Positions 10,102 through 60,000 of a stretch of 64,000 nucleotides of DNA are shown here, one piece after another (within the stretch, counting starts at the first letter, position 1; each line of letters opens with the position of its first letter). The notes beneath the pieces are model-generated. The model saw nothing but the letters and a program-made list of their open reading frames with translations, was not told the origin of the DNA and searched no databases. Both the position numbers and the translations under genes were made by a program. The stretch comes from Elusimicrobia bacterium UBA6262 (GTDB lineage: Bacteria > CAYTYR01 > UBA6262). Where the stretch lies: NCBI GenBank assembly GCA_002441095.1, contig DJVG01000043.1:2254-66253 (forward strand), written 5' to 3'.

Positions 10102-10219
10102 TAAGCACCCTACGCTAAAAGTAATTCCAAATTACAAATTTCAAATGACAAATTAAGGAATTCTGTGTGATCTCTGTTCTAATCTGTGTAATCTCTTTTT
10201 CTAATCGGTGTAATCATGT
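10102..10219. repeat. intergenic array of CTGTGTAATC / GGTGTAATC motifs (GATTACACAG family) ending in TAATCGGTGTAATCAT
   Basis: tctgtgtgatctctgttctaatctgtgtaatctctttttctaatcggtgtaatcat; identical 16-mer taatcggtgtaatcat recurs at ~20008. Confidence 0.6.
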
Positions 10220-12412
10220 TCACATCACAAAAAGCATCTCGCGATATTTCGGCAGGTCCCAATGCTCATCCGCGATCACGCCTTCCAGGTCATCGCTGTG
10301 TTTACGGATATGTTCCATCAGCGGTTTCAATTCATTAAAATATACAGCAGCTTTCTCTTTGCCTTCCAGGCTCCTGGCTTTTTCCAGTAATTTCACCAAA
10401 ATCTGGGTATTTTTCCGTAAATAATAGATCTTATTGGTGACATCAGCCAGGTGCCCTTTCAGATCCTCAAAAGCTTTCTCATCAATATTCAAGCCAATGG
10501 TATTTTTAAGGCTACTGATCTTTTCCAGGTTATTAGCCAATTGTCCCTGGTATTCCAGTCCCGCCGGGACAACTATCGAGTCAACCATTTCCCGCAGGGT
10601 GCTGGCTTCAATAGTGAGCACAATGTTATACATTTCAACCCAGATATTATATCGCGCCATTAATTCATCATGGCTTAATACGCCTTGTTTCTCGAAAATG
10701 GCAATATTTCCTTTTTCCGTGAAAGCAGCCAGGGCCTCAGCGGTAGAAGCGACATTGGCCAAACCGCGTTCTTTGGCCTCATAGAGCCATTCTGAAGAAT
10801 AATTATTACCTTCAAACCTGATATTTTTCGTTTCTTTAGCCAGCTGGGCAATTACTGCCACCACGGCAGATTCAAGATCCTTATTTCTCAGTTCTTTAGT
10901 TATCTCCTCAGCCACATAATTCAGCGAATCGGCAATGATCGTATTGATCACTGTCAATGGCCAGCTGATATTCTGCGATGAACCTACCGCCCGGAACTCA
11001 AACTTACTGCCGGTAAAGGCAAAGGGCGAAGTCCGGTTACGGTCAGTAGCGTCCTTATTCACTTTAGGCAGGCGTCCCACACCAAGGTCGATAATATCTT
11101 TTTTAGTGACTTTATGCGCAGTCCCGGCAACAATCGTGTCCAGCACCTTGGTCAGTTGTTCTCCCAGGAACACCGAAACAATCGCCGGCGGGGCCTCATT
11201 AGCTCCCAAGCGGTGTTCATTGCCGGCTGAGGCAATACTGGCCCGCAAAAGATCCGCATGCTTATGAACCGCCCGTAAAACTGCTACCAGCACAGCCAGG
11301 AATTGCAGGTTATCTTCCGGCGTCTGTCCGGGATTAAGCAGGTTATTTCCCTGGTCATCAGCCATGGACCAGTTCACATGCTTGCCACTGCCATTAATTC
11401 CGGCAAAAGGTTTCTCATGCAGCAGGCAAACCAGGTTATGGCGCAAAGCTACTTTTTTCATGATTTCCATCAGTAGCTGGTTATGATCAGCAGCAATATT
11501 GGATTCTTCAAAAATAGGAGCAAATTCAAACTGGTGCGGCGCTACTTCATTATGGCGGGTAGTGACGGGAATACCCATCTTAAAGGCTTCTACGGAAACT
11601 TCTTCCATATAATTCAGGACCCGCTCTTTGATCGAGCCAAAATACTGGTCCTCCAGCTGCTGCCCTTTCGGCGAAGAGGCCCCGATCAGCGTGCGTCCGG
11701 TCAGCATCAGGTCCTGCCGCAATTTGTAATAGTTATTATCGATCAGGAAATATTCCTGCTCCGGGCCGCAGGTAGAAACTACCTTGCTAATGTCCCGGCG
11801 GCTGAATAATTTAAGCAGTTTTTTCGCCGCTTTACTGAGCGCTTCATCAGAACGAAGCAAGGGCAGCTTTTTATCTAAAGCATACCCATGGTAGGAGACG
11901 AAAATGCTGGGAATACACAGTGTTTTCCCTAACCGGGTCTCGCTGATAAAAGCCGGGCTGGAAGGATCCCAGGCAGTATAGCCGCGCGCCTCGAATGTGC
12001 TCCTGATACCGCCGCTGGGGAAAGAACTGGCATCTGGCTCACCCAGGATCAGTTTGGATCCGGAGAACTTTTCCACGACCTTGCCGGCACTATGCAGGGA
12101 TATAAAGCTGTCATGTTTTTCGGCGGTCAGTCCGGTCATAGGCTGGAACCAGTGGGCATAATATATTGCTCCTTTTTCCACGGCCCAGTCTTTCATAGCC
12201 CCGGCAATTTCATCAGCCTCTTTCATACTGATGGTACTGCCCCCGGCTAACCAGCGCTTGAAAGAAATAAAGGTTTTTTTACCGATCCGTTTCTGCATTT
12301 CGCTGATACTGAAAGTATTAGAACCAAAGTACCCGGAAACTTTTTTTGGTTTTTCAATTTTTGTTAAAGGAACACTCTCGATCTTGTCCACCACTTTTTG
12401 CCTAACGCACAT
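10220..12412 (-). CDS. glnN: glutamine synthetase type III (GlnN)
   Basis: 730 aa (GSIII size); N-terminal SGYFGSNTF...YAHWFQPMTGLTAEKHDSF and central NGSGKHVNWS, C-terminal regions characteristic of Bacteroides-type GSIII. Confidence 0.85.
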   Translation of the reverse strand: MCVRQKVVDKIESVPLTKIEKPKKVSGYFGSNTFSISEMQKRIGKKTFISFKRWLAGGSTISMKEADEIAGAMKDWAVEKGAIYYAHWFQPMTGLTAEKHDSFISLHSAGKVVEKFSGSKLILGEPDASSFPSGGIRSTFEARGYTAWDPSSPAFISETRLGKTLCIPSIFVSYHGYALDKKLPLLRSDEALSKAAKKLLKLFSRRDISKVVSTCGPEQEYFLIDNNYYKLRQDLMLTGRTLIGASSPKGQQLEDQYFGSIKERVLNYMEEVSVEAFKMGIPVTTRHNEVAPHQFEFAPIFEESNIAADHNQLLMEIMKKVALRHNLVCLLHEKPFAGINGSGKHVNWSMADDQGNNLLNPGQTPEDNLQFLAVLVAVLRAVHKHADLLRASIASAGNEHRLGANEAPPAIVSVFLGEQLTKVLDTIVAGTAHKVTKKDIIDLGVGRLPKVNKDATDRNRTSPFAFTGSKFEFRAVGSSQNISWPLTVINTIIADSLNYVAEEITKELRNKDLESAVVAVIAQLAKETKNIRFEGNNYSSEWLYEAKERGLANVASTAEALAAFTEKGNIAIFEKQGVLSHDELMARYNIWVEMYNIVLTIEASTLREMVDSIVVPAGLEYQGQLANNLEKISSLKNTIGLNIDEKAFEDLKGHLADVTNKIYYLRKNTQILVKLLEKARSLEGKEKAAVYFNELKPLMEHIRKHSDDLEGVIADEHWDLPKYREMLFVM

Positions 12413-12590
12413 GGTTTTACCCCCATTGGTCAGAGTATCAGGATATCAGGATATCAGGCTATCAGGTTTTCCTGATAATCTGATTACCTGATACCCTGTT
12501 GTCCTGATCCATAATCTCCTGATATTCTCACCCTGATTACCTGATATTCTGATATCCTTATTTATTTTTCTATTATACTTTATTGCCTGG
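12413..12590. repeat. ATCAGG x4 / CCTGAT x8 opposed-repeat element (long imperfect palindrome) in glnN upstream region
   Basis: gtatcaggatatcaggatatcaggctatcagg...cctgataatctgattacctgataccctgttgtcctgatccataatctcctgatattctcaccctgattacctgatattctgatatcc. Confidence 0.7.
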
Positions 12591-15149
12591 TTAAATGCAA
12601 GCGTTTCCCTTTTTCTTATAGTTAACCATCTTCAGGATTTCAAACCAGAGAATACTAAAGATCCCAGCCGCCGTACAGATCACAAAATCAATGAAGTGAA
12701 GCTGCGAAAAGTGAAACAACCTTTTCAAGAACGGTACATTCAGGCTCAAGCCCAGGAATAACAAGGCTCCTGTTAAAACCAGCCAGGAAGCCGTATTAGG
12801 AGCGCGCAACGTGGTTATGATCGACTTTGACCAGGAACGGTTCGTGAAGATCAGGGCTATATTGGCTACGATCAACGTGGTAAAGGTCATGGCCCTGGCT
12901 TCCATATCACCCAATCCCCGGAATAAAGCTATGGCATAAACCGCTAAGACCACGACTAAAACAGTTATACCTTGCAGCAGGCTGATACCAATAGTACGCC
13001 GGTTGAACAGTGACTGTTTAGGATCCCGCGGCGGGCGGTTCATGATCTGTGGTTCCTCTTTTTCCGCTTCAAAGACTATCGAACACGCCGGGTCTATAAT
13101 TAGCTCCAGGAAAACAATATGTACCGGTAGTAAGACCAGGGGCCATTTAAGTAAAACCGGTATCAGGGACAGGCCGGCGATCGGCACATGAATAGCAAAA
13201 ATATAAGCCATGGCTTTTTTAATATTATCAAAGATCCTTCTGCCCAGCCTGACCGCTGAGACAATAGAAGAAAAATCATCATCCAGTAATACCAGTCCCG
13301 CAGCCTCCCTGGCGACATCGGTCCCGCGTCCGCCCATGGCAATACCAATATGGGCCGCTTTCAGCGCCGTAGCGTCATTAACCCCGTCACCGGTCATGGC
13401 GACGATCTCGCCATTGGCTTTCAACGCATTGACCAGTAATAATTTTTGTTCTGGCATGACCCGGGCAAAGATACTGGTTTTCTTGATCCGTTCACATAGT
13501 TCCGCAACACTTAATTTTTCCAGTTCCGGTCCGGTGATATAATCATCAGCTTTATGCAAACCGATCTGGCGGGCAATATTCATAGCTGTACCAGGATAAT
13601 CACCAGTGATCATTACGACGCGGATACCGGCAGTATAACATTCCTTGATGGATTCAGCCACAGTCGGGCGCACCGGATCCGTCAGTCCAACCAGCCCGAC
13701 AAATTCAAAAAAGAAATCATGTTGTTGTCCTGGTAATGACTCTTCCTGGAAATGGGCTTTGGCCACGCCAATGATCCTCAATCCCTCGTCAGCCATGGTA
13801 TTTATCTGCCCACTTAATTCAGCCGCCGCTGTCTGATCCATATGGCACAGGTCAATGACCGCTTCTGGCGAACCTTTGGCCGCAATAATATAGTCTTTCC
13901 CGTCAGGAGATTTCCAGACATGGGACATCGCCAGCAATTCCTGTGACAAGGGATATTCCTGGACCAGGGTCCAATTATAATGCAAATGTTCTGTATTGGA
14001 AAGAGTTTTGGTCCCTAGATCCCTGATGGCTTTTTCCATCGGGTCAAAAGGATCATGCTGGCTGGCCAGGATGGCAAACTCTACGATCTCATGGAATTTT
14101 TCCGGTAGCCTTCCCTTATACTCCGGATCAACGGCAAAGTACTTGCTTTGGGCACACACTTTTCCGACCGTCATCCGGTTCATGGTCAGGGTCCCGGTTT
14201 TGTCCACACAGAGCACCGTGGCTGCTCCCAAAGTTTCAATGACCGGTACCCTCCGGGTTAAAACATTTTTTTGGGAAATACGCCAGGCTCCTAACGCCAG
14301 GAAAATGGTCAGGACCACCGGGAATTCTTCCGGCAGCATGGCCATCGCCAGGGTAATGCCGGCCAGAAACCCGTGCAGGAAACTGCCGGTAGTCAAACCA
14401 TAGGCGACAATAACGATCGAACATAGTACTATACCGCTAATAGCTAAATTTTTAACTACCCTGCCGGTTTCTTTCTGCAAGGCTGTTTCTTCTTCTTCTA
14501 TGGTTTGCAGGGATTTACCGATCTTGCCGATCTCTGTATTCAGGCCTGTACCCTTTACCCGGGCGATCCCTTGACCGCGCACGACCAGTGTTGCTGAATA
14601 AACAAACGGCGTATCTTCGCCACCGGGACGGGACATTTCCTCATCAGATTTTTCGGCAGTTTTCCTAACCGGCACTGACTCACCGGTTAACAAGGATTCA
14701 TCCACAGAAAGAGCGCTGGACCAAAGCACCATGGCATCAGCCGGTATACGGTCACCTTCAGCCAGGATCAGGATATCTTCACACACCACTTCCCGGCCGG
14801 CAATACGTAATTGTTTACCATCCCTGATCACCAGTGCCCTGGGGCTGGTGATATCACGCAAAGCCTCCAAAGCCCGCTCAGTTTTGCGTTCCTGGTACAG
14901 GGTAATACCCATCACCACAAAAACAAAACCCAGCAGCATTAATGCTTCCTGTTTATCACCCAATAACCAGTAAATTACCCCGCAGGCCACCAGCAGCAGG
15001 AACATCGGTTCGCTCAATATTTCAAAAGCGATCTTCCAGACACTGCGCCGACGACTGGACGGGAGTTCATTATATCCTTCTGCCCCCAATCTGGCCTGCG
15101 CTTCTTTTTGGGACAGTCCGGTAATATTTTTTATTTCACTGTAATCCAT
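12591..15149 (-). CDS. cation-transporting P-type ATPase (P2-type, Ca2+/Mg2+-like)
   Basis: 852 aa; DKTGTLT phosphorylation motif, TGES actuator-like motif, MTGDGVNDA hinge, 8-10 TM helices. Confidence 0.85.
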   Translation of the reverse strand: MDYSEIKNITGLSQKEAQARLGAEGYNELPSSRRRSVWKIAFEILSEPMFLLLVACGVIYWLLGDKQEALMLLGFVFVVMGITLYQERKTERALEALRDITSPRALVIRDGKQLRIAGREVVCEDILILAEGDRIPADAMVLWSSALSVDESLLTGESVPVRKTAEKSDEEMSRPGGEDTPFVYSATLVVRGQGIARVKGTGLNTEIGKIGKSLQTIEEEETALQKETGRVVKNLAISGIVLCSIVIVAYGLTTGSFLHGFLAGITLAMAMLPEEFPVVLTIFLALGAWRISQKNVLTRRVPVIETLGAATVLCVDKTGTLTMNRMTVGKVCAQSKYFAVDPEYKGRLPEKFHEIVEFAILASQHDPFDPMEKAIRDLGTKTLSNTEHLHYNWTLVQEYPLSQELLAMSHVWKSPDGKDYIIAAKGSPEAVIDLCHMDQTAAAELSGQINTMADEGLRIIGVAKAHFQEESLPGQQHDFFFEFVGLVGLTDPVRPTVAESIKECYTAGIRVVMITGDYPGTAMNIARQIGLHKADDYITGPELEKLSVAELCERIKKTSIFARVMPEQKLLLVNALKANGEIVAMTGDGVNDATALKAAHIGIAMGGRGTDVAREAAGLVLLDDDFSSIVSAVRLGRRIFDNIKKAMAYIFAIHVPIAGLSLIPVLLKWPLVLLPVHIVFLELIIDPACSIVFEAEKEEPQIMNRPPRDPKQSLFNRRTIGISLLQGITVLVVVLAVYAIALFRGLGDMEARAMTFTTLIVANIALIFTNRSWSKSIITTLRAPNTASWLVLTGALLFLGLSLNVPFLKRLFHFSQLHFIDFVICTAAGIFSILWFEILKMVNYKKKGNACI

Positions 15150-16000: not shown

Positions 16001-16133
16001 AATAAGTTATAAACTACGGGTATCAGGTAATCAGGGGACCAGGGAGTGGATATCAGGAAATCAGGACAGCAGGTCTTACCTGATACTCTGATAACCTGAT
16101 TCCCTCTACCTGATAACCTGTTATCCTGATGTC
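16001..16133. repeat. ATCAGG / CCTGAT opposed-repeat element (same family as 12413-12590)
   Basis: ggtatcaggtaatcaggggaccagggagtggatatcaggaaatcaggacagcagg...cctgatactctgataacctgattccctctacctgataacctgttatcctgatgtcc; lies between znuC-like stop and znuB-like start. Confidence 0.7.
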
Positions 16134-22044: not shown

Positions 22045-22310
22045 TGGCTCAGTAAGAACGAAGAGCAGTCAGAACGAAAAGCAGTAGAAACGAGGAGCAG
22101 TCAGAACGAAAAGCAGTAAAACATAATTACAGTCATTACGAGGAACAGTTGCCAGTAAGTAAAAAAACAGTAAGCGCTAATCTTTATTAGTTACTATCAA
22201 ATGACTCTCGCTGCTTTTGTTTTTCGTTTTGACTGCCTTTCATTCTTACTGCTCTTTGCTTTGACTGCTCTTCGTCTTTACTGCTTCTTGCTTTGACTTA
22301 TTAACTCCGC
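22045..22310. repeat. tandem CAGTCAGAACGAAAAGCAGTA units (22045-22140) and inverted copies TACTGCTTTTCGTTTTGACTG (22200-22310): long imperfect inverted repeat
   Basis: gagcagtcagaacgaaaagcagtagaaacgaggagcagtcagaacgaaaagcagtaaaac ... ctgcttttgtttttcgttttgactgcc...tactgctctttgctttgactgctcttcgtctttactgcttcttgctttgac; related copy at ~20395-20430. Confidence 0.7.
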
Positions 22311-53782: not shown

Positions 53783-54910
53783 TTATTCCTTATCTAAATG
53801 CCTTATCCAAATAGCCGGCTCCGTAGCCAGGTTTACGCGTTTTTCCTCGGTGCACTCTTCGCCATTGCAAGTAGTGATTATTTTTACTACTGGACGAAGA
53901 ATATTATTACTATTCAGGGCGACCACCCTGGCTAATTCCTTGGTGTTCAACTCCACCAGGCTGCCGATCGGGAAAATACCGATCTTGTTTATCAGCACCT
54001 TGATCAATTTAGGATCATAAGCGCTTTTATTTTTCAGTATCTCCTGGATCGTTTCCCGGGCCTGGAATTCGGTGCGGTAGGTTCTCCGGTGCATCATGGC
54101 TTCATATATATCCAGGATACCGACTATAGAACTATATTCATGTATCTGGCTGCCCTTCAAGCCATCGGGATAACCGGAGCCGTCCAGATGTTCATGGTGT
54201 TGCCGCGCCACTTCAAAAACTACATCATCCAGGCCTTTGATACTGGATAACATCTTGGCCGCAAACAAGGTATGGTTTTTTGTCCTCTCAAAATCTTCTT
54301 TGCTTAATTTATTGGCCTGGCTTATTATTTCCAGGTAATGAGCCATCCCCACATCATGCAATAAAGAGGCGGTCCCGAGTTCTTTTAACCGGTATGGTTC
54401 GTATCCTAATTCCAGGCCGATCATTATGGATAAAATACAGACATTGGTTACATGACAAAATATATATGTGGTTTGCGAAGAAACATCCGGATTTAACGCC
54501 AGTTCGGTCATTTTCTCCGGATGCGCCCTGGCTAGATCGATTATCTTGTCTACGATCGCGGAGATCCGGTGAATATCAATAAGCTCATAGATCGCATCTT
54601 CTTTCATTATTTCTTGCATTAAGGCCAGCGCATCATTATAGGCTTTTTCACATTCAGTGAAAGCAGCGACATCTATATTTTGTCTTATAGGCTGCGGGCT
54701 GGGCGTAATTATTTCTGCTTCTGCCGGTGCGGGAGCAGGTTGAAAAACAGTTTCATGATGAGCAACTATGGGAGTGTCTAGTGGAGGAGCGGCGGAGACA
54801 GGTAATGGCTGGATACCCTTATCTGTTTTTTTTCTTTCCTCGATCTTTTTGAATATATCCGACATTTTAACCATGATAGTATTATATATACCATAAAATG
54901 TTCTTGTCAA
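53783..54910 (-). CDS. HD-GYP domain c-di-GMP phosphodiesterase
   Basis: HDVGMAHYLE ... HHEHLDGSGYPDGL. Confidence 0.85.
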   Translation of the reverse strand: MTRTFYGIYNTIMVKMSDIFKKIEERKKTDKGIQPLPVSAAPPLDTPIVAHHETVFQPAPAPAEAEIITPSPQPIRQNIDVAAFTECEKAYNDALALMQEIMKEDAIYELIDIHRISAIVDKIIDLARAHPEKMTELALNPDVSSQTTYIFCHVTNVCILSIMIGLELGYEPYRLKELGTASLLHDVGMAHYLEIISQANKLSKEDFERTKNHTLFAAKMLSSIKGLDDVVFEVARQHHEHLDGSGYPDGLKGSQIHEYSSIVGILDIYEAMMHRRTYRTEFQARETIQEILKNKSAYDPKLIKVLINKIGIFPIGSLVELNTKELARVVALNSNNILRPVVKIITTCNGEECTEEKRVNLATEPAIWIRHLDKE

Positions 54911-55001
54911 GCAAGCAAGTAAAAAGGGAATTAGTTTTTACCCGATATTCTGGTATCCTGATAACCTCTTCCTGATCTCCTGATTCCCTGATATCCTCAA
55001 T
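54911..55001. repeat. CCTGAT x5 repeat element (same family as 12413-12590, one arm only)
   Basis: atattctggtatcctgataacctcttcctgatctcctgattccctgatatcctc. Confidence 0.6.
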
Positions 55002-56447
55002 TTACATCTTTGGCAGGTTCGTCTTTCCCATCAGGTATTTATCTATATTATAAGCCGCGGTACGGCCTTCGGATATGGCCCAGACTATCAGGGACTGGCC
55101 CCGGTGCATGTCCCCGGCAGTAAAAATCTTCTGAACTGAGGTTTGGTGGTTCTCCCCGGCCTTGACATTGCCCCTCTGGTCCAGTTCTACTTTCAGCTTT
55201 TCCAACAATCCTTTTGGTTCCGGGTGCAGGAACCCAAGCGCTAACAGTACCAGGTCTGCCTGGATATTGAACTCACTGCCGGCTATGTCCTTAGGTGATA
55301 CGCAACCCTTGGCATCTTTACCTGACCAATCGATACGGACGCATTCCAAATGCTTGACCTGTCCTTTTTCCCCGCTGAATTTCCTGGTCTGGATGGCCCA
55401 CTCCCTTTCCCCGCCTTCCTCATGGCTGGAAGAAGTCTTCAACAGCGGCGGATATTTGGGCCAGGGGAATTGCCCGGTCCGGCATTCCGGCGCTGGCGGC
55501 AGCAATTCGATCTGCACTACACAGCTGGCTCCCTGGCGATGGGCAGTGCCCACACAGTCTGCACCAGTATCACCGCCGCCGATCACTACCACTTTTTTGC
55601 CTTTAGTATCGATCAATTGGCTGGCTGGTATTTTTTCCCCGCTCACTTTTTTATTGGATTGGATCAGGTAATCCATGGCAAAATAAATTCCTGCCAATTC
55701 CCGGCCCGCGATTTTAAAGTCACGCGGCTGACGTGAGCCACCCGCGAGGCAGACAGCGTCAAATTCCTTCAACAGTTTAGCCACAGGATAATCAATTCCC
55801 GCATTTACATTGGTGCGGAATTCGATCCCTTCTTTTTCATAGATCTCCAGCCGGCGGTCCAGGATACTCTTTTCCAGCTTGAAGTCAGGAATACCGTAAC
55901 GCAAAATACCGCCTGGTTTGGCGTCTTTTTCAAAAACCGTCACCTTATGCCCGGCTTTGTTCAACTGGTCAGCCGCAGCCAGCCCGGCTGGTCCGGACCC
56001 GATCACTGCTACTTTCTTGCCGGTACGTTTCAGCGGCGGTTCAGGTTTGATCAGTCCCATTTTGAAAGCATATTCAATAATAGCCAGCTCATTCTCGCGG
56101 ATCGTGACCGGGTCATCATTAATACCCAGCACGCAGGCAAACTCACACAGAGCCGGGCACAAACGACCGGTAATTTCCGGCAGGTTGTTGCAGGCGTGCA
56201 GGAGTTCAATGGCCCGTTCCCAATGGGAGCGGTAAACCAGGTCGTTCCAGTCAGGAATATAATTACCGATCGGACAACCCCAATGGCAGAACGGCGTCCC
56301 GCAATCCATGCACCGCGAAGCCTGCTCCTGCGTTACTTCTTCTTTCCGCGGTACAACCACGTCACGGTAGTCTTTGGTCCGTACGCACACCGGCCGGTAT
56401 TTTGTTTTTAGCCGTTTTACTTTTAAGAAACCCTTTGGATCACCCAT
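55002..56447 (-). CDS. gltD: glutamate synthase (NADPH) small subunit
   Basis: VAVIGSGPAGLAAADQL dinucleotide-binding motif, N-terminal Cys cluster, 481 aa. Confidence 0.85.
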   Translation of the reverse strand: MGDPKGFLKVKRLKTKYRPVCVRTKDYRDVVVPRKEEVTQEQASRCMDCGTPFCHWGCPIGNYIPDWNDLVYRSHWERAIELLHACNNLPEITGRLCPALCEFACVLGINDDPVTIRENELAIIEYAFKMGLIKPEPPLKRTGKKVAVIGSGPAGLAAADQLNKAGHKVTVFEKDAKPGGILRYGIPDFKLEKSILDRRLEIYEKEGIEFRTNVNAGIDYPVAKLLKEFDAVCLAGGSRQPRDFKIAGRELAGIYFAMDYLIQSNKKVSGEKIPASQLIDTKGKKVVVIGGGDTGADCVGTAHRQGASCVVQIELLPPAPECRTGQFPWPKYPPLLKTSSSHEEGGEREWAIQTRKFSGEKGQVKHLECVRIDWSGKDAKGCVSPKDIAGSEFNIQADLVLLALGFLHPEPKGLLEKLKVELDQRGNVKAGENHQTSVQKIFTAGDMHRGQSLIVWAISEGRTAAYNIDKYLMGKTNLPKM

Positions 56448-56501
56448 TCTTATACCTCGTTTTTCGGTTTACGGTTACGATGCCCGTTTACAAACTTCGG
56501 T
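56448..56501. repeat. tandem ~27-bp CGGTTTACGG-TTACGATGCCCGTTTA units flanking the four-helix-bundle gene
   Basis: cggtttacggttacgatgcccgtttacaaacttcggtttacgggtgcggtttcgatgcccgtttaa. Confidence 0.6.
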
Positions 56502-56912
56502 TTACGGGTGCGGTTTCGATGCCCGTTTAAAACTGTTCCAAACATTTCCGAGTTTATATAACTGTCGCGCTGATTTATCATATGAATCTATCAATTTATT
56601 ACATAATAAAACATCTGTTTGTTCTGGATAAATATCCTTAGTCTGATTCAAGCTGACAATTATTTCATTACACTCAGCCATTGCGTCATCAATATACTTT
56701 TGGAAGCCAGCTTTTTGATGTCGTTTCGCGTACCCCTCAGCTATTAATCTTGGCACTGACTTACATGCTCTACTTAGCTGATCTTTCAAATCATATCTTT
56801 CAACATCTGGTAATTTTGGTAAGACCTCTTTCATTACTACAAGCATCGCTTTATAAGTATTGTTATATACTTCCAAATCCGTAAAACTAACAATCTTCTT
56901 TTTATTTTCCAA
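56502..56912 (-). CDS. four-helix-bundle protein (family frequently encoded in 23S rRNA intervening sequences)
   Basis: 136 aa; LEVYNNTYKAML...RACKSVPRLIAEGYAKR...ECNEIIVSL pattern of the four-helix-bundle (TIGR02436-like) family. Confidence 0.65.
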   Translation of the reverse strand: MENKKKIVSFTDLEVYNNTYKAMLVVMKEVLPKLPDVERYDLKDQLSRACKSVPRLIAEGYAKRHQKAGFQKYIDDAMAECNEIIVSLNQTKDIYPEQTDVLLCNKLIDSYDKSARQLYKLGNVWNSFKRASKPHP

Positions 56913-57038
56913 TTCTTTTCCTTTCGCTCTCCGAAACCGTATATCGATTCCTAGCTTCTATTCGGGCCTCGTATCCGTTTACCGTATACCAAGCTTCTAT
57001 TCGGGCTTCGTTACCGTACACCGTATACCGAGCTTTTA
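56913..57038. repeat. tandem ~44-bp AGCTTCTATTCGGGCYTCGT-TCCGTTTACCGTATACC units flanking the four-helix-bundle gene
   Basis: agcttctattcgggcctcgtatccgtttaccgtataccaagcttctattcgggcttcgttaccgtacaccgtataccgagctt. Confidence 0.6.
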
Positions 57039-60000
57039 TTATCCGTCATAAGACTGTTCTAAGTCCAGCTTATCTGCTTTTTTCTTGGATTCCAGTATCT
57101 TCTTGTATTCCAGCGGCATGACCTTGATGAATTTCCCGCGCTGGCCCTCAAAATCAGCCAGTACTTTTTGCGCGTATTCACTGCCAGTGTATTTTTTGTG
57201 GTTTTCCAGCAGGTTTTTTATTATGCCCGCATCATCTTCATTAACAATATCCAATTCCACCATATCCTGGTTGCACCTGGCTGGGAAATTACCGTCTTCA
57301 TCAAGTATATAGGCTACGCCGCCGCTCATGCCAGCCGCGAAATTGCGCCCGGTACTGCCCAGGACCACGATCCTGCCACCGGTCATGTATTCACAACCAT
57401 GGTCGCCTACACCTTCCACTACCGCGTTTAATCCGGAATTCCTGATACAGAATCTTTCCCCAGCCCGGCCGCAAATATAAGCTTCCCCGGTGATGGCTCC
57501 GTAAAAAGTAGTATTTCCGATTATAATATTCTCTTCCGGCCGGTAATCTGATTTCCGGTCAGGATAAATTATTATCTTCCCGCCGGAGATGCCTTTACCG
57601 ACATAGTCATTAGCCAGTCCTTCCAGCTCGAAAGTCACGCCTCTGGCCAGCCACGCACCGAAACTCTGCCCAGCCATGCCCTTGAATTTAAAATTAATAG
57701 AATCTTCCGGCAAGCCAGCTTCGCCATATTTTTTACAAACTTCGCCGCTCAACATGGCGCCGGTCGTGCGATTGGTATTTTTGATTGTGAGCTCTACTTT
57801 GATCGGTTCCTTTTTTTCCAGCGCTGGTTTGGCCAGGACGATCAATTGCCGGTCCAGCACCTTATCTATATTATGGTTTTGTTTAATGATCTGGTGTGTT
57901 TCAATATTTATATTGGCCTTCGGCTGGTATAACATCCGGGAATAATCCAGACCTTTGGTTTTCCAGTCTAGCATATCCTTGTTCAGCTCCAGCAGGTCTG
58001 TCCGGCCGACCATATCTTCCAAGGTAGGAGTGCCTAATCCTGCCATGATCTCCCGCAGTTCTTCGGCTACTAAACGGAAATAATTCACCAGGTATTCTGG
58101 TTTACCGCGGAACCGTTTGCGCAACTCTTCATCCTGGGTGCAAACCCCGACCGAGCAATTATTCAAATGGCAATGCCTCAGCATCACGCAGCCTAATACA
58201 ACCAGGGCAGCAGTGCCGAACCCGAATTCTTCGGCTCCGAGCATTGCGGCTATGGCCAGGTCCCGTCCGGTGCGCATTTGTCCGTCAGCCTGCAGGCGGA
58301 CCCGGCTCCTCAGGTCATTGAGCACCAGGGTCTGGTGCGTTTCTGATAATCCCAGCTCCCAGGGCAGGCCGGCATGCTTGACCGAGCTCAACGGTGACGC
58401 TCCGGTGCCGCCATCCCCGCCGGAGATCAGGATCATGTCAGCATGGCCCTTGGCCACGCCCGCGGCTACGGTCCCTACGCCGATCTCTGATACCAGCTTG
58501 ACGCTGACGCGCGCTGTAGGATTAGTATTTTTCAGGTCGAAGATCAACTGGGCCAGGTCTTCGATAGAATAAATGTCATGATGCGGCGGCGGTGAGATCA
58601 GCGTTACGCCCGGAGTAGTGTAACGGGTTTTGGCGATCGTCACGCTTACCTTATGACCGGGTAACTGTCCGCCTTCACCTGGTTTCGCGCCTTGGGATAT
58701 CTTTATCTGCAATTCATCGGCATTGACCAGGTAATTGGTAGTTACACCGAAACGGCCGGATGCGACTTGTTTAATAGCGCTGCGCACCGAATCCCCGTTC
58801 GGTAATGGCGCGAACCTGGCTGGATCCTCTCCACCCTCTCCGGTATTGGACTTACCGCCTAAACGGTTCATGGCCATAGCCATGGTTTCATGAGTTTCCT
58901 TACTGATCGAGCCGAAGCTCATAGCTCCGGTCACAAAATGTTTGACCAGGTTTTCTATTGGTTCTACTTTATCCAAAGAAATCGGCTTGGCCTTTTTTAA
59001 TTTCAGCAAACTGCGCAAAGTGGTCGGATGTCCCGATTGGTCATTGATCAGACCGGCGAATTCTTTATACTTCCCGTAATCCCCGTTGCGCGTAGCATCC
59101 TGCAGAGCGGCAATGCTTTCAGGATTCCACAAATGGTATTCCCCGTCCCTTTTCCACTGGTATAACCCGCCGGTGATCAAATACGGGGTCTTGAATTCAT
59201 CGCGCAAAGGATAGGCCTGCTGATGGCGCAAAATGGTTTCCCGGGCCAGGATTTTCATATCCGCTCCGCCGATGCGGGAAACAGTGCCGGCAAAACATCT
59301 CTCGATCACGTCGTCAGCCAAACCAAGAGCTTCATAGATCTGGGCGCCGCGGTAGCTTTGCAAAGTGGAAATACCCATTTTCGAAAGCACTTTTTTAATG
59401 CCCTTGTTAATAGCTTTAATATAATTATCGACTGCCTTGTCCAGTCGGAGATGCACTTCCCCTTCCAGGATCAGGTGCTCGATAGCTTCATACGCCAGGT
59501 AAGGATTAACAACTCCCGCGCCAAAAGCCAGCAAGAGAGTGAAGTGATTCACTTCCCTGGGTTCCGCGCTTTCTACAATTATGGCGATCTGCGCGCGCAA
59601 TCCTTTTTTTACCAGGTATTGGTGGACTGCCCCGGTAGCCAGCAGGGCTGGCAACGCGGCTTGTTTCCGGCTGGTGCCCCGGTCGCTCAAAATAATAAAA
59701 GTAAACCCTTCGCTGATCGCTTCCCGCGCATCGGCGCAGATACGGTCGAGAGCTTTCAGGAATTCTTTTTCATCTTCTGCTTCGTTCCCATTGACCGGGA
59801 ACAGGATCGAGATCCGCTTGGCGCGGAATCCGGGCTCTTTAATAGAATGTATCCGGGTCAGCTCATCGTTAGTAATGACTGGCAGCGGTACCCTGAGCTT
59901 GCGGCAATTTTGCGGTACTTCTTCCATTAAATTCTTTCGCGGGCCCATAAAGCTTTCCAGGCTCATGACCAGTTCTTCCCGGATCGGGTCGATCGGCGGA

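What the first reader, a model, noticed from the sequence alone, without database searches (positions are those of the whole stretch)
12413..12590. ATCAGG/CCTGAT opposed-repeat element (first of three copies) upstream of glnN
The 178-bp intergenic region contains four direct ATCAGG hexamers spaced 6-8 bp apart, followed by eight CCTGAT/CTGAT hexamers. The whole region is an imperfect ~120-bp palindrome able to form a long hairpin or cruciform. The same architecture recurs at 16001-16133 and, as a single arm, at 54911-55001. It lies immediately upstream of the GSIII start. It could be a miniature inverted-repeat element, a multi-site operator for a dimeric regulator, or a structured RNA leader.
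Basis: seen in the sequence. Interest (0 to 1): 0.6.

Follow-up and report, generated by a model that had tools for sequence, protein, structure and literature searches.

The report
Gene-less IVS-type hairpin repeat
The ATCAGG/CCTGAT palindrome in front of the glutamine synthetase gene is one copy of a widespread selfish repeat: the empty stem of a small cassette that, in its full form, carries a four-helix-bundle (S23p/Avd-like) gene of the kind found in 23S rRNA intervening sequences. It is not a dedicated regulator of that gene.

Summary
Three intergenic sites (12425-12561, 16022-16130, 54941-54992) hold 8-bp-period arrays of ATCAGG. Two of them are opposed arrays that fold into stems of about -53 and -56 kcal/mol (z about -5).

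The element is not specific to glnN. It sits between a conserved promoter and the glnN ribosome-binding site, but four of five syntenic relatives lack it there, including the closest (92% GSIII identity).

The arrays have a defined arm: 3 units, an 8-9-nt block, then 3 units. A 28-base arm signature hit 80 metagenome loci. In Planctomycetota the same two arm types bracket a PF05635 gene (23S rRNA intervening-sequence protein, Avd-like). One arm supplies its start codon and first 12 codons, and the other begins at or a few bases after its stop.

At an orthologous fabF-serS locus, some strains carry the full cassette and others a 440-nt deletion that leaves the arms. PF05635 genes sampled without reference to repeats are likewise bracketed by opposed short-repeat arms. 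One lies in this window between gltB and gltD.

Best reading: an ORF-less derivative of an IVS-like cassette, transcribed into mRNA as a long stem. RNase III processing is inferred from rRNA intervening sequences, not tested. How the element moves is unknown.

The parts
12425..12512 (.). Copy 1, core imperfect palindrome: two 42-nt arms separated by 4 nt.
   Evidence: the repeat finder reports the arms as 74% complementary. The RNA fold of 12413-12590 on the minus strand is -52.9 kcal/mol, z = -5.2.
12437..12466 (+). Copy 1: four exact ATCAGG octads. On the glnN sense strand these are the four CCUGAU units of the 3' arm.
12471..12561 (-). Copy 1: about ten ATCAGG-type units on the glnN sense strand, interrupted by two non-unit blocks (12509-12517 and 12524-12531). 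Only the four units nearest the loop have partners.
   Evidence: Parsing; TRF.
12572..12600 (-). Promoter-like TTGCAT, 17 nt, TATAAT. It overlaps the end of the P-type ATPase gene and places copy 1 in the glnN 5' UTR.
   Evidence: Read directly from the sequence. The same motif is conserved upstream of glnN in L121-L124 and L126. The consensus scanner did not call it because the -35 hexamer matches only 3 of 6 positions.
10220..12412 (-). glnN (type III glutamine synthetase), the gene downstream of copy 1.
   Evidence: Pfam GSIII_N, Gln-synt_C and Gln-synt_C-ter.
16022..16073 (+). Copy 2, first arm: 3 units, GAGTGGAT, 3 units. It matches the family arm signature exactly.
   Evidence: Zero mismatches at 16030-16065 against 0.00 expected; arm listing.
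16079..16130 (-). Copy 2, second arm: 3 units, TAGAGGGA, 3 units on the minus strand. The whole copy lies between the ABC ATPase stop (16134) and the ABC-3 permease start.
   Evidence: The fold is -55.5 kcal/mol, z = -4.7.
54941..54992 (-). Copy 3: a solo arm on the minus strand (3 units, AAGAGGTT, 3 degenerate units). It lies between the gltD-like stop (55002) and the promoter of the HD-domain gene.
   Evidence: It has no structure (z = +0.9).
54881..54910 (-). A 12/12 sigma-70-type promoter (TTGACA, 18 nt, TATAAT) immediately downstream of copy 3.
56445..57045 (-). Full-length sister cassette between gltB and gltD. It comprises a 5' arm of TACGGT-type repeats (about 56935-57040), a PF05635 ORF (56502-56912) and a 3' arm of ACCGTA-type repeats (about 56455-56501).
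   Evidence: Pfam 23S_rRNA_IVP, E = 6.3e-15, and TIGR02436. Sequence. In the fold the 5' flank pairs with the 3' flank across the ORF: -150.3 kcal/mol, z = -4.3.

Best explanation
The element is an ORF-less member of a family of small intercistronic cassettes.

The complete cassette, seen in Planctomycetota, reads:
- [3 ATCAGG octads, ATG(C/A)AGGAT, 3 octads]
- a gene of about 125-150 codons for a PF05635 protein (23S rRNA intervening-sequence protein, S23p, Avd-like four-helix bundle)
- [3 CCTGAT octads, RYCCACTA, 3 octads]

The 9-nt block in the first arm is the gene's start codon, and the next three octads encode its first residues. The stop codon lies at or within a few bases of the second arm (shown).

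Internal deletion removes the gene and leaves either two opposed arms (a hairpin element, like copies 1 and 2) or one arm (like copy 3). This is shown at one orthologous locus and inferred for the window copies.

The elements sit between genes, come and go between close relatives, and are transcribed with their host genes (position shown, transcription inferred). In the transcript the two arms pair into a long stem of 6-bp helices separated by 2x2 mismatches (predicted).

By analogy with rRNA intervening sequences that carry the same gene family, the stem is probably cut by RNase III. For copy 1 that would trim the glnN leader. For copy 2 it would separate the znuC-like and znuB-like cistrons (inferred, untested).

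Copy 1 is therefore an accidental passenger in the glnN 5' UTR, not a dedicated regulator. How the cassette spreads is unknown.
For: 1. A defined arm rather than a plain microsatellite.
- Thirty arms of the form 3 units, X, 3 units were found in the loci from the genome scan and the glnN-syntenic loci plus the window. X falls into two classes: 8-nt tAGTGGry and 9-nt rTGyAGGAT.
- A 28-base signature of the first class hit 80 metagenome loci, where chance expectation is about zero.
- The plus arm of copy 2 matches that signature exactly.

2. The same arm pair with and without cargo.
- Of the 80 loci, 57 are paired hairpins whose second arm carries the 9-nt class. In 20 of the 24 second arms that could be strictly parsed, the block begins with ATG, GTG or TTG.
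- In L298, L301, L328, L338, L339 and L346 both arm types enclose a PF05635 ORF; in L372 only the CCACTA-type arm is present (Pfam E = 3e-29).
- Two complete Phycisphaerales genomes show the same arrangement: fabF, arm, ORF, arm, serS.

3. The arm is part of the gene.
- This PF05635 subfamily has 769 database proteins. The 120 listed are 76-100% identical to the query.
- Most of the 120 begin MQDIRKSEYQEKPVAG or a close variant. That is the translation of ATGCAGGAT followed by three octads.

4. Deletion origin. L339 and L298 carry the full cassette, while L337 and L336 carry a 440-nt deletion at the same fabF-serS site. Flanks are 76-82% identical.

5. Generality, tested without reference to repeats.
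- Homologues of the window's own PF05635 protein in five different operons are all co-oriented with their neighbours.
- All five are bracketed by inverted arrays of GGTWACG units. Joining the two flanks gives folds of -50 to -81 kcal/mol.
- The same holds in the window itself.
- Other arm units flank further PF05635 genes in L116, L372 and L338.

6. Dispensable for glnN. L121, L122, L124 and L126 lack the element in the glnN leader and L123 has it. L121 carries one downstream of glnN instead. L124 has the two ABC genes overlapping where copy 2 sits.

7. Literature. The Coxiella IVS is a selfish element with an S23p ORF in the loop of a stem formed by terminal inverted repeats, and RNase III cuts that stem. 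The same holds for Leptospira and Salmonella intervening sequences (PMC4990558). PF05635 is homologous to the DGR protein Avd (PMC10053308; NCBIfam).
Against: - None of the three window copies carries the ORF. No ATCAGG-armed PF05635 gene was seen in the window or in the Omnitrophota-like relatives. The full cassettes found are from Planctomycetota.
- Copy 2 has an AGTGG-type block in both arms rather than the canonical pair. Copy 1 is irregular, with ten units facing four.
- PF05635 is not a known transposase. No target-site duplication was seen at the one site compared. No copy with convergent arms and other cargo was found. Mobility therefore has no mechanism.
- RNase III cleavage is untested, and stems with a 2x2 mismatch every 6 bp may be poor substrates.
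- Spacer dinucleotides are no more complementary than chance: 38% pairable against 45% in permutations. Stem stability itself may therefore not be under selection.
- Period-8 arrays of arbitrary hexamers are common, so array counts alone prove nothing.
Confidence: 0.65

Rival explanations
1. The hairpin elements are the primary entity: a host or selfish palindromic repeat. PF05635 genes are secondary passengers that insert into the loops. The ORF-less form would then be ancestral, not derived.
For: - ORF-less forms far outnumber ORF-bearing ones: 57 paired hairpins against about 7 ORF-bearing loci, and one PF05635 hit (L116, with different arms) among the 119 genome loci.
- ORF-less elements occur in both orientations relative to their neighbours.
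Against: - The start codon and first 12 codons of the gene are built from the arm in more than 100 distinct proteins.
- Different PF05635 subfamilies each have their own arm unit.
- At the fabF-serS locus, the ORF-less state retains only one unit of the first arm, as expected from deletion rather than from an empty target site.
Confidence: 0.12
2. The element is a classical MITE. The arms would be clustered binding sites for a transposase encoded elsewhere, which mobilises the element in trans.
For: - Opposed arms, multiple copies, and presence/absence polymorphism at orthologous sites.
- The hexamer is conserved while the 2-nt spacer is free. The same unit variants occur in both arms, which suggests recognition of the unit as such.
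Against: - No target-site duplication at the filled versus empty glnN leader.
- No pair of convergent arms enclosing a transposase within 0.3-7 kb in about 1.3 Mb of loci.
- The long form found carries PF05635 instead.
Confidence: 0.08
3. The array is a multi-site operator or architectural array for a DNA-binding protein. Possible models are a ribbon-helix-helix protein like MetJ, omega or ParG, which bind tandem 7-8-bp repeats, or IHF/HU as proposed for the paired repeat sites of Geobacter metallireducens.
For: - The 8-bp period with a conserved hexamer.
- The arrays are always convergent, never divergent.
- Single arms show no bias relative to the direction of transcription.
- The Geobacter paired sites were interpreted this way (PMC2700814).
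- The properties of MetJ, omega and ParG are from my own knowledge.
Against: - Position relative to promoters is inconsistent.
- Neighbouring genes are unrelated.
- The element is absent from the closest relative's glnN leader.
- The convergent-only rule and the 3-X-3 design are explained by the cassette structure.
Confidence: 0.07
4. The arrays are independent slippage-born simple-sequence repeats (LSSR/STRR-like) with no common descent. The palindrome would be an accident of local duplication.
For: - Genomes with these arrays hold many other 7-8-nt arrays: 98 heptamer arrays in 913 kb.
- Arbitrary hexamers at period 8 are equally common in viral contigs.
- Unit number differs strongly between the window and L123 at the same site.
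Against: - The conserved central block, the two arm types and their fixed relative orientation recur across phyla.
- Variation is confined to unit positions 7-8.
Confidence: 0.04
5. The element is a dedicated cis-regulatory RNA leader, such as a riboswitch or a protein-binding leader, that controls glnN.
For: It lies between the promoter and the ribosome-binding site, and it folds strongly.
Against: - Absent in four of five syntenic relatives.
- The same element occurs at unrelated genes.
- No Rfam match.
- No spacer covariation.
Confidence: 0.03

Closest known systems
23S rRNA intervening sequences (IVS) carrying an S23p ORF (Coxiella burnetii, Leptospira; PMC4990558)
   Same: The full-length relatives have the same build: a PF05635/S23p gene in the loop of a long stem formed by terminal inverted repeats. 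Both have a sporadic, horizontally scattered distribution and are regarded as selfish elements. The ORF decays or is lost in some lineages.
   Different: - Located between protein-coding genes in operons or in a 5' UTR, not in helix 25 or 45 of 23S rRNA.
- The stems are built from tandem 7-8-nt units with a 3-X-3 design rather than a simple 28-bp inverted repeat.
- The three window copies have no ORF.
- RNase III excision is not shown here.
REP/BIME elements of enterobacteria
   Same: Multi-copy imperfect palindromes in transcribed intergenic regions, often within a few bases of the upstream stop codon. They affect mRNA only as a side effect. This comparison is from my own knowledge.
   Different: - No REP-type GTAG-plus-hairpin unit.
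- No RAYT transposase seen.
- The arms are tandem octads.
- The related long form carries PF05635.
MITEs
   Same: A short, non-coding inverted-repeat derivative of a longer coding element, far more numerous than the long form.
   Different: - No target-site duplication.
- No transposase.
- The mechanism of spread is unknown.
Paired tandem-repeat sites of Geobacter metallireducens ('putative global regulator binding sites', classes 1-3; PMC2700814)
   Same: - Pairs of sites on opposite strands, each made of 3-5 tandem 7-9-nt units, in intergenic positions such as between proB and proA.
- Class 3 units (MTYCTGA) share the TCAG core and the same convergent orientation.
   Different: - Different unit and period.
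- Described only as candidate IHF/HU sites.
- No link to PF05635 was reported or tested here.
TAACTGA heptamer repeats (Beggiatoaceae, Cyanobacteria, Bacteroidetes; PMC4679880) and cyanobacterial STRR heptamers
   Same: - Short tandem units in intergenic regions, close to start codons.
- Patchy cross-phylum distribution and unknown function.
- TAACTGA in tandem reads CTGATAA, close to the CCTGATAA consensus of copy 1.
   Different: - Mostly direct arrays of one orientation.
- Period 7.
- No central block or cargo gene was described.
Avd, the accessory protein of diversity-generating retroelements
   Same: The cargo protein family is homologous to Avd: a weak NF033474 hit, a PF22296 bAvd hit, and PMC10053308.
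   Different: No reverse transcriptase, template repeat or variable repeat lies next to these cassettes.

Membership tests
IVS-type cassette (S23p/PF05635 intervening sequence) | Terminal inverted repeats that pair into a long stem. | tested here: met
   - Copies 1 and 2 fold at -52.9 and -55.5 kcal/mol, z about -5.
- In the window's own PF05635 cassette the flanks pair across the ORF.
- Copy 3 is a solo arm and does not meet this feature.
IVS-type cassette (S23p/PF05635 intervening sequence) | A PF05635 ORF in the loop. | tested here: not met
   - The three ATCAGG copies in the window have loops of 4-5 nt or no second arm.
- The feature is met by full-length relatives with the same arms.
- It is also met by the sister cassette at 56445-57045.
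IVS-type cassette (S23p/PF05635 intervening sequence) | Inserted in 23S rRNA (helix 25 or 45). | tested here: not met
   All copies lie between protein-coding genes. The window holds no rRNA.
IVS-type cassette (S23p/PF05635 intervening sequence) | Excised from the host transcript by RNase III. | not testable with these tools
   Known for Coxiella, Leptospira and Salmonella intervening sequences (PMC4990558). No RNA data exist for this organism.
ATCAGG-armed PF05635 cassette family (defined here) | An arm of 3 ATCAGG octads, an 8-9-nt block, then 3 octads. | tested here: met
   - Copy 2: both arms qualify, and one matches the signature exactly.
- Copy 3: one arm with block AAGAGGTT, by eye; it was not recovered by the strict arm finder.
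- Copy 1: irregular, with two blocks in a ten-unit arm and four plain units opposite.
ATCAGG-armed PF05635 cassette family (defined here) | Canonical arm pair: an ATG-class block in one arm and a CCACTA-class block in the other. | tested here: inconclusive
   - Seen in L121 (downstream of glnN) and in most metagenome copies.
- Copy 2 has AGTGG-like blocks in both arms.
- In copy 1 the ATG sits in a shifted position.
MITE | Target-site duplication and a related autonomous element that encodes a transposase. | tested here: not met
   - No duplication at the filled versus empty glnN leader.
- No transposase-bearing element was found.
- The long form encodes PF05635.
REP/BIME | REP unit (a roughly 35-bp palindrome with a conserved tetranucleotide) and a RAYT gene. 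| tested here: not met
   The arms are tandem octads. No RAYT-like ORF was found among the neighbours scanned. The REP definition is from my own knowledge.
Known structured RNA families (Rfam 15) | A match at or above the family gathering score. | tested here: not met
   No hits over the whole window. Only sub-threshold matches to generic miRNA hairpins appear at copies 1 and 2.
Tandem-repeat operator of a ribbon-helix-helix regulator | A consistent position relative to promoters of a regulon, and a cognate binding protein. | tested here: not met
   Positions are downstream of a promoter, inside an operon, and upstream of a promoter. Neighbouring genes are unrelated. Protein binding itself cannot be tested here.

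The most novel reading that the evidence does not exclude
PF05635 (S23p/Avd-like) cassettes with tandem-repeat arms may be a general, so far unrecognised class of mobile intercistronic elements. Their ORF-less relics would then account for a large share of the unexplained short (7-8-nt) tandem arrays in bacterial intergenic regions. These include cyanobacterial STRRs, TAACTGA repeats and the Geobacter paired sites. In this reading, the pentameric protein recognises the periodic arms of its own RNA or DNA, and spread might involve a reverse transcriptase acting in trans, as Avd does in DGRs.
Probability: 0.2. Interest if true: 0.75.

Novelty: new variant of a known kind. Interest (0 to 1): 0.55.

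Why it matters
- It removes a tempting but wrong reading: a nitrogen-control operator or leader at glnN.
- It ties an odd repeat to a known but poorly understood selfish element, the rRNA intervening sequence with its S23p gene.
- If the link holds, intervening sequences are not an rRNA peculiarity. They would be one habitat of a broader cassette family that lives between genes in operons in Planctomycetota, Omnitrophota and other phyla, and that leaves many gene-less hairpins behind.
- It gives a concrete, testable origin for some of the short tandem intergenic repeats that have been catalogued for decades without explanation.
- It gives the large 'four helix bundle protein' family a defined genetic context.
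- For annotation, such hairpins mark probable RNase III processing sites inside operons and likely break points of metagenome assemblies.

Tried and rejected
- **Rfam.** The gathering-threshold scan of the whole window and the permissive scans of copies 1 and 2 gave nothing beyond sub-threshold miRNA-like hairpins.
- **Count of ATCAGG arrays in genomes as evidence of a special unit.** Rejected after controls. In viral contigs the same pattern built from three other hexamers gave 19, 26 and 92 loci, against 36 for ATCAGG.
- **CsrA-type GGA sites.** Unit position 7 is only a purine and GGA is not conserved. Single arms occur in either orientation relative to the neighbouring genes.
- **RNA-level selection on the stem.** Spacer dinucleotides are not complementary between arms. 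The common unit variants (ACCAGG, ATCAGA, AACAGG) are the same in both arms rather than wobble-asymmetric.
- **Autonomous element with convergent arms and cargo at 0.3-7 kb.** None was found in the loci from the first scans.
- **Functional enrichment of neighbouring genes.** Neighbours include glnN, a znuB-like permease, an HD-domain protein, RecO, cytidine deaminase, DHFR, pirin and an ABC ATPase. No theme emerges.
- **HNH-AP2 endonuclease as partner.** One ORF flanked by two single arms (L061) and one homologue in L085. This is too little to build on.
- **Literature.** Searches for ATCAGG/CCTGAT repeats and for octamer repeats found no description of this family.
- **Sister-type arms.** The GGTAACG/AAGCCCG motifs occur only at the one cassette in the window.

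Full report
**Observation.** The 178-bp gap between a P-type ATPase gene (12591-15149, minus) and glnN (10220-12412, minus; Pfam GSIII_N) holds four exact ATCAGG hexamers at a strict 8-bp period (12437-12466). TRF reports 3.9 copies at 95% match.

These are followed by ten CCTGAT-type units (12471-12561): six exact CCTGAT, two TCTGAT and two degenerate. The same layout recurs at 16022-16130, between an ABC ATPase gene and an ABC-3 permease gene of a ZnuA/ABC/ABC-3 operon. A single arm lies at 54941-54992, between a gltD-like gene and an HD-domain gene.

ATCAGGNNATCAGG with at most one mismatch occurs 20 times in the window against 0.34 expected, and 19 of the 20 lie at these three sites.

On the transcribed (minus) strand, copy 1 folds at -52.9 kcal/mol (z = -5.2) and copy 2 at -55.5 kcal/mol (z = -4.7). 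The solo arm has no structure (z = +0.9). Copy 1 is asymmetric, with about ten units facing four.

**Not a glnN device.** GSIII homology places the window near Omnitrophota MAGs. The source is an ENA metagenome contig.

Five syntenic loci share a promoter-like TTGCAT, 17 nt, TATAAT just after the ATPase stop, and the window has it at 12600-12572 on the minus strand. Copy 1 lies between that -10 box and the glnN ribosome-binding site, so it is in the 5' UTR.

L121 (92% GSIII identity), L122, L124 and L126 have a short leader with no array. Only L123 (87%) has an element there, with very different unit numbers and a nested foreign repeat.

L121 instead carries a complete ATCAGG hairpin downstream of glnN. 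L123 has one between the two ABC genes, like copy 2. In L124 those two genes overlap.

Copy 3 lies just upstream of a 12/12 sigma-70-type promoter, and copy 2 has no promoter nearby. Rfam gives nothing. A conserved operator or leader is therefore not supported.

**How special is the unit?** A scan of one genome per species for three ATCAGG octads returned 119 or more loci from many phyla. About twenty of these show ATCAGG arrays followed by CCTGAT arrays, and none shows the reverse order.

The raw count is not evidence, however. The same pattern built from three other hexamers is about as common in viral contigs: 19, 26 and 92 loci against 36. The genomes concerned are also full of other 7-8-nt arrays.

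What is specific is the internal order:
- In arms that the search did not select for, unit positions 1-6 are conserved and positions 7-8 are free.
- The common unit variants are the same in both arms.
- Spacer dinucleotides are no more complementary between arms than chance.
- Single arms show no bias relative to the direction of transcription.

**A defined arm.** Parsing showed a recurrent arm of 3 units, an 8-9-nt block, then 3 units. Thirty such arms were found. The block is of two kinds: tAGTGGry (8 nt) or rTGyAGGAT (9 nt).

A 28-base signature of the first kind hit 80 metagenome loci. It matches the plus arm of copy 2 exactly.

In 57 of the 80 loci a second, opposed arm follows, and it carries the complement of the 9-nt block. 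The canonical element is therefore asymmetric. In 20 of the 24 second arms that could be strictly parsed, that block begins with ATG, GTG or TTG.

**The cargo.** Several apparently single arms are followed by the same convergent ORF. It is a PF05635 protein (23S_rRNA_IVP, E = 3e-29; weaker bAvd, TIGR02436 and Avd hits).

In gene orientation the cassette reads:
- [3 units, ATG(C/A)AGGAT or GTGCAGGAT, 3 units]
- aaaag, then the ORF, then the stop codon
- [3 units, RYCCACTA, 3 units]

This protein subfamily has 769 database members, labelled Sedimentisphaerales, Phycisphaerae or Planctomycetota. The 120 listed are 76-100% identical to the query, and most begin MQDIRKSEYQEKPVAG or a close variant. 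That is the translation of the 9-nt block plus three octads. Two complete Phycisphaerales genomes show fabF, arm, ORF, arm, serS.

At that same fabF-serS site, L337 and L336 have a 440-nt deletion. It leaves one unit of the first arm and the whole second arm, and the flanks are 76-82% identical to L339. This shows directly that ORF-less and solo-arm forms can arise from the full cassette.

**Generality.** The window itself has a PF05635 gene (56502-56912, minus) between gltB and gltD. TACGGT-type repeats flank it on the 5' side and their complement on the 3' side. In the fold the two flanks pair across the ORF (-150.3 kcal/mol, z = -4.3).

Its homologues were chosen without regard to repeats. 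They sit in five other operons:
- PAPS reductase / EF-Tu-like
- IMPDH / DnaE
- MlaF / MlaD
- LOG-like / PurF
- histidine kinase / response regulator

All five are co-oriented with their neighbours. All five are bracketed by inverted arrays of GGTWACG units around a central block, and joining the two flanks gives folds of -50 to -81 kcal/mol. Further PF05635 genes in L116, L372 and L338 have other arm units.

**Comparison with what is known.** The Coxiella intervening sequence is described as a selfish element in 23S rRNA. It has an S23p ORF in the loop of a stem made by terminal inverted repeats, and RNase III cuts that stem. Leptospira and Salmonella intervening sequences are also excised by RNase III. 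S23p is a pentamer of four-helix bundles (PMC4990558). PF05635 is related to the DGR protein Avd (PMC10053308).

The present elements share the stem-plus-PF05635 build. They differ in three ways: they lie in mRNA intergenic regions, their arms are made of tandem octads, and they are mostly ORF-less.

Paired tandem-repeat sites of Geobacter metallireducens have the same gross architecture, and class 3 shares the TCAG core and orientation. They were only guessed to bind IHF/HU (PMC2700814). TAACTGA repeats and long simple-sequence repeats are related phenomena of unknown function (PMC4679880). I found no paper that describes this family or links such repeats to PF05635.

**Mechanism, with status of each step.**
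- Shown: the anatomy of the arms, the shared arms with and without ORF, one deletion event, the presence/absence polymorphism, and the intergenic position.
- Predicted: the RNA stems.
- Inferred from the rRNA intervening sequences: RNase III cleavage of the stem. For copy 1 this would give a processed glnN leader. For copy 2 it would separate the two ABC cistrons.
- Unknown: how the cassette spreads, and what the protein does.

**Weak points.**
- The window copies are irregular.
- The full ATCAGG cassettes come from another phylum.
- There is no target-site duplication and no transposase.
- The stems have a 2x2 mismatch every 6 bp.

**Verdict.** This is a real, multi-copy element, best filed as an ORF-less variant of an IVS-like PF05635 cassette. 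It is of moderate interest in itself, and of more interest if the link to other short tandem intergenic repeats proves general.

Noticed in passing
window 22050-22298: Another opposed pair of tandem arrays with a different unit: CAGTCAGAACGAAAAG x4 facing its complement. The arms reach 81 nt at 73% complementarity with a loop of about 70-100 nt. The pair lies between a PilZ-domain gene and an FGGY kinase gene and partly overlaps the PilZ ORF as called. It may be an ORF-less element of another arm family.
   Followed up: partly
window 10102-10219: The gap downstream of glnN is made of 22-nt repeats (GATTACAC.GATTAGAA...) followed by AATTTGN heptamers. L122, and in part L123, have homologous arrays. 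L121 has an ATCAGG hairpin at this site instead. Intergenic regions in this lineage look like mosaics of short arrays.
   Followed up: partly
window 53783-54910: The HD-domain ORF as listed starts at a TTG that coincides with the -35 box of a 12/12 sigma-70-type promoter (54910-54881, minus). The true start codon must lie further downstream.
   Followed up: partly
window 12470-12520 (minus strand): On the glnN sense strand, copy 1 contains a possible 16-codon upstream ORF. It starts at the ATG in AGATTATGG and ends at the TGA in the first CCTGAT unit. It may be a remnant of the cassette start codon in a shifted position.
   Followed up: no
L061:6584-7414 and L085:294-881: In a Pirellulales MAG, an HNH_3 + AP2 domain ORF is flanked on both sides by single ATCAGG arms of the 3-X-3 type, next to a Bro-N gene. 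A 44%-identical homologue in a Sedimentisphaerales MAG is flanked by other short arrays.
   Followed up: partly
L123:1930-2085 and L123:3880-3950: A different small repeat (ttatcccctgctgatcc... / gacgcggggacaggtcagg) is nested inside or next to both ATCAGG elements of this relative. This recalls the small dispersed repeats reported inside heptamer arrays of Nostoc (from my own knowledge).
   Followed up: no
L294, L299, L341-L344, L359 and others (metagenome loci): In one abundant subfamily the ATCAGG hairpin is itself nested in a larger palindrome. That outer palindrome is made of GTGCCTAAAG-type repeats on the left and CTTTAGGCAC-type repeats on the right.
   Followed up: no
protein lists: Very many PF05635 proteins of both subfamilies are known only from contigs of 0.5-1.5 kb. 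This fits repeat arms breaking metagenome assemblies at these cassettes.
   Followed up: no
L202-L293 (viral contigs): GTGACA octad arrays are frequent in viral contigs (92 loci), and 42 clusters mix both orientations. They look like phage operator or iteron arrays and are unrelated to the present family.
   Followed up: no
L376:1968-3396: The DnaE gene next to one PF05635 cassette carries an intein with a LAGLIDADG domain, so two selfish elements sit side by side.
   Followed up: no
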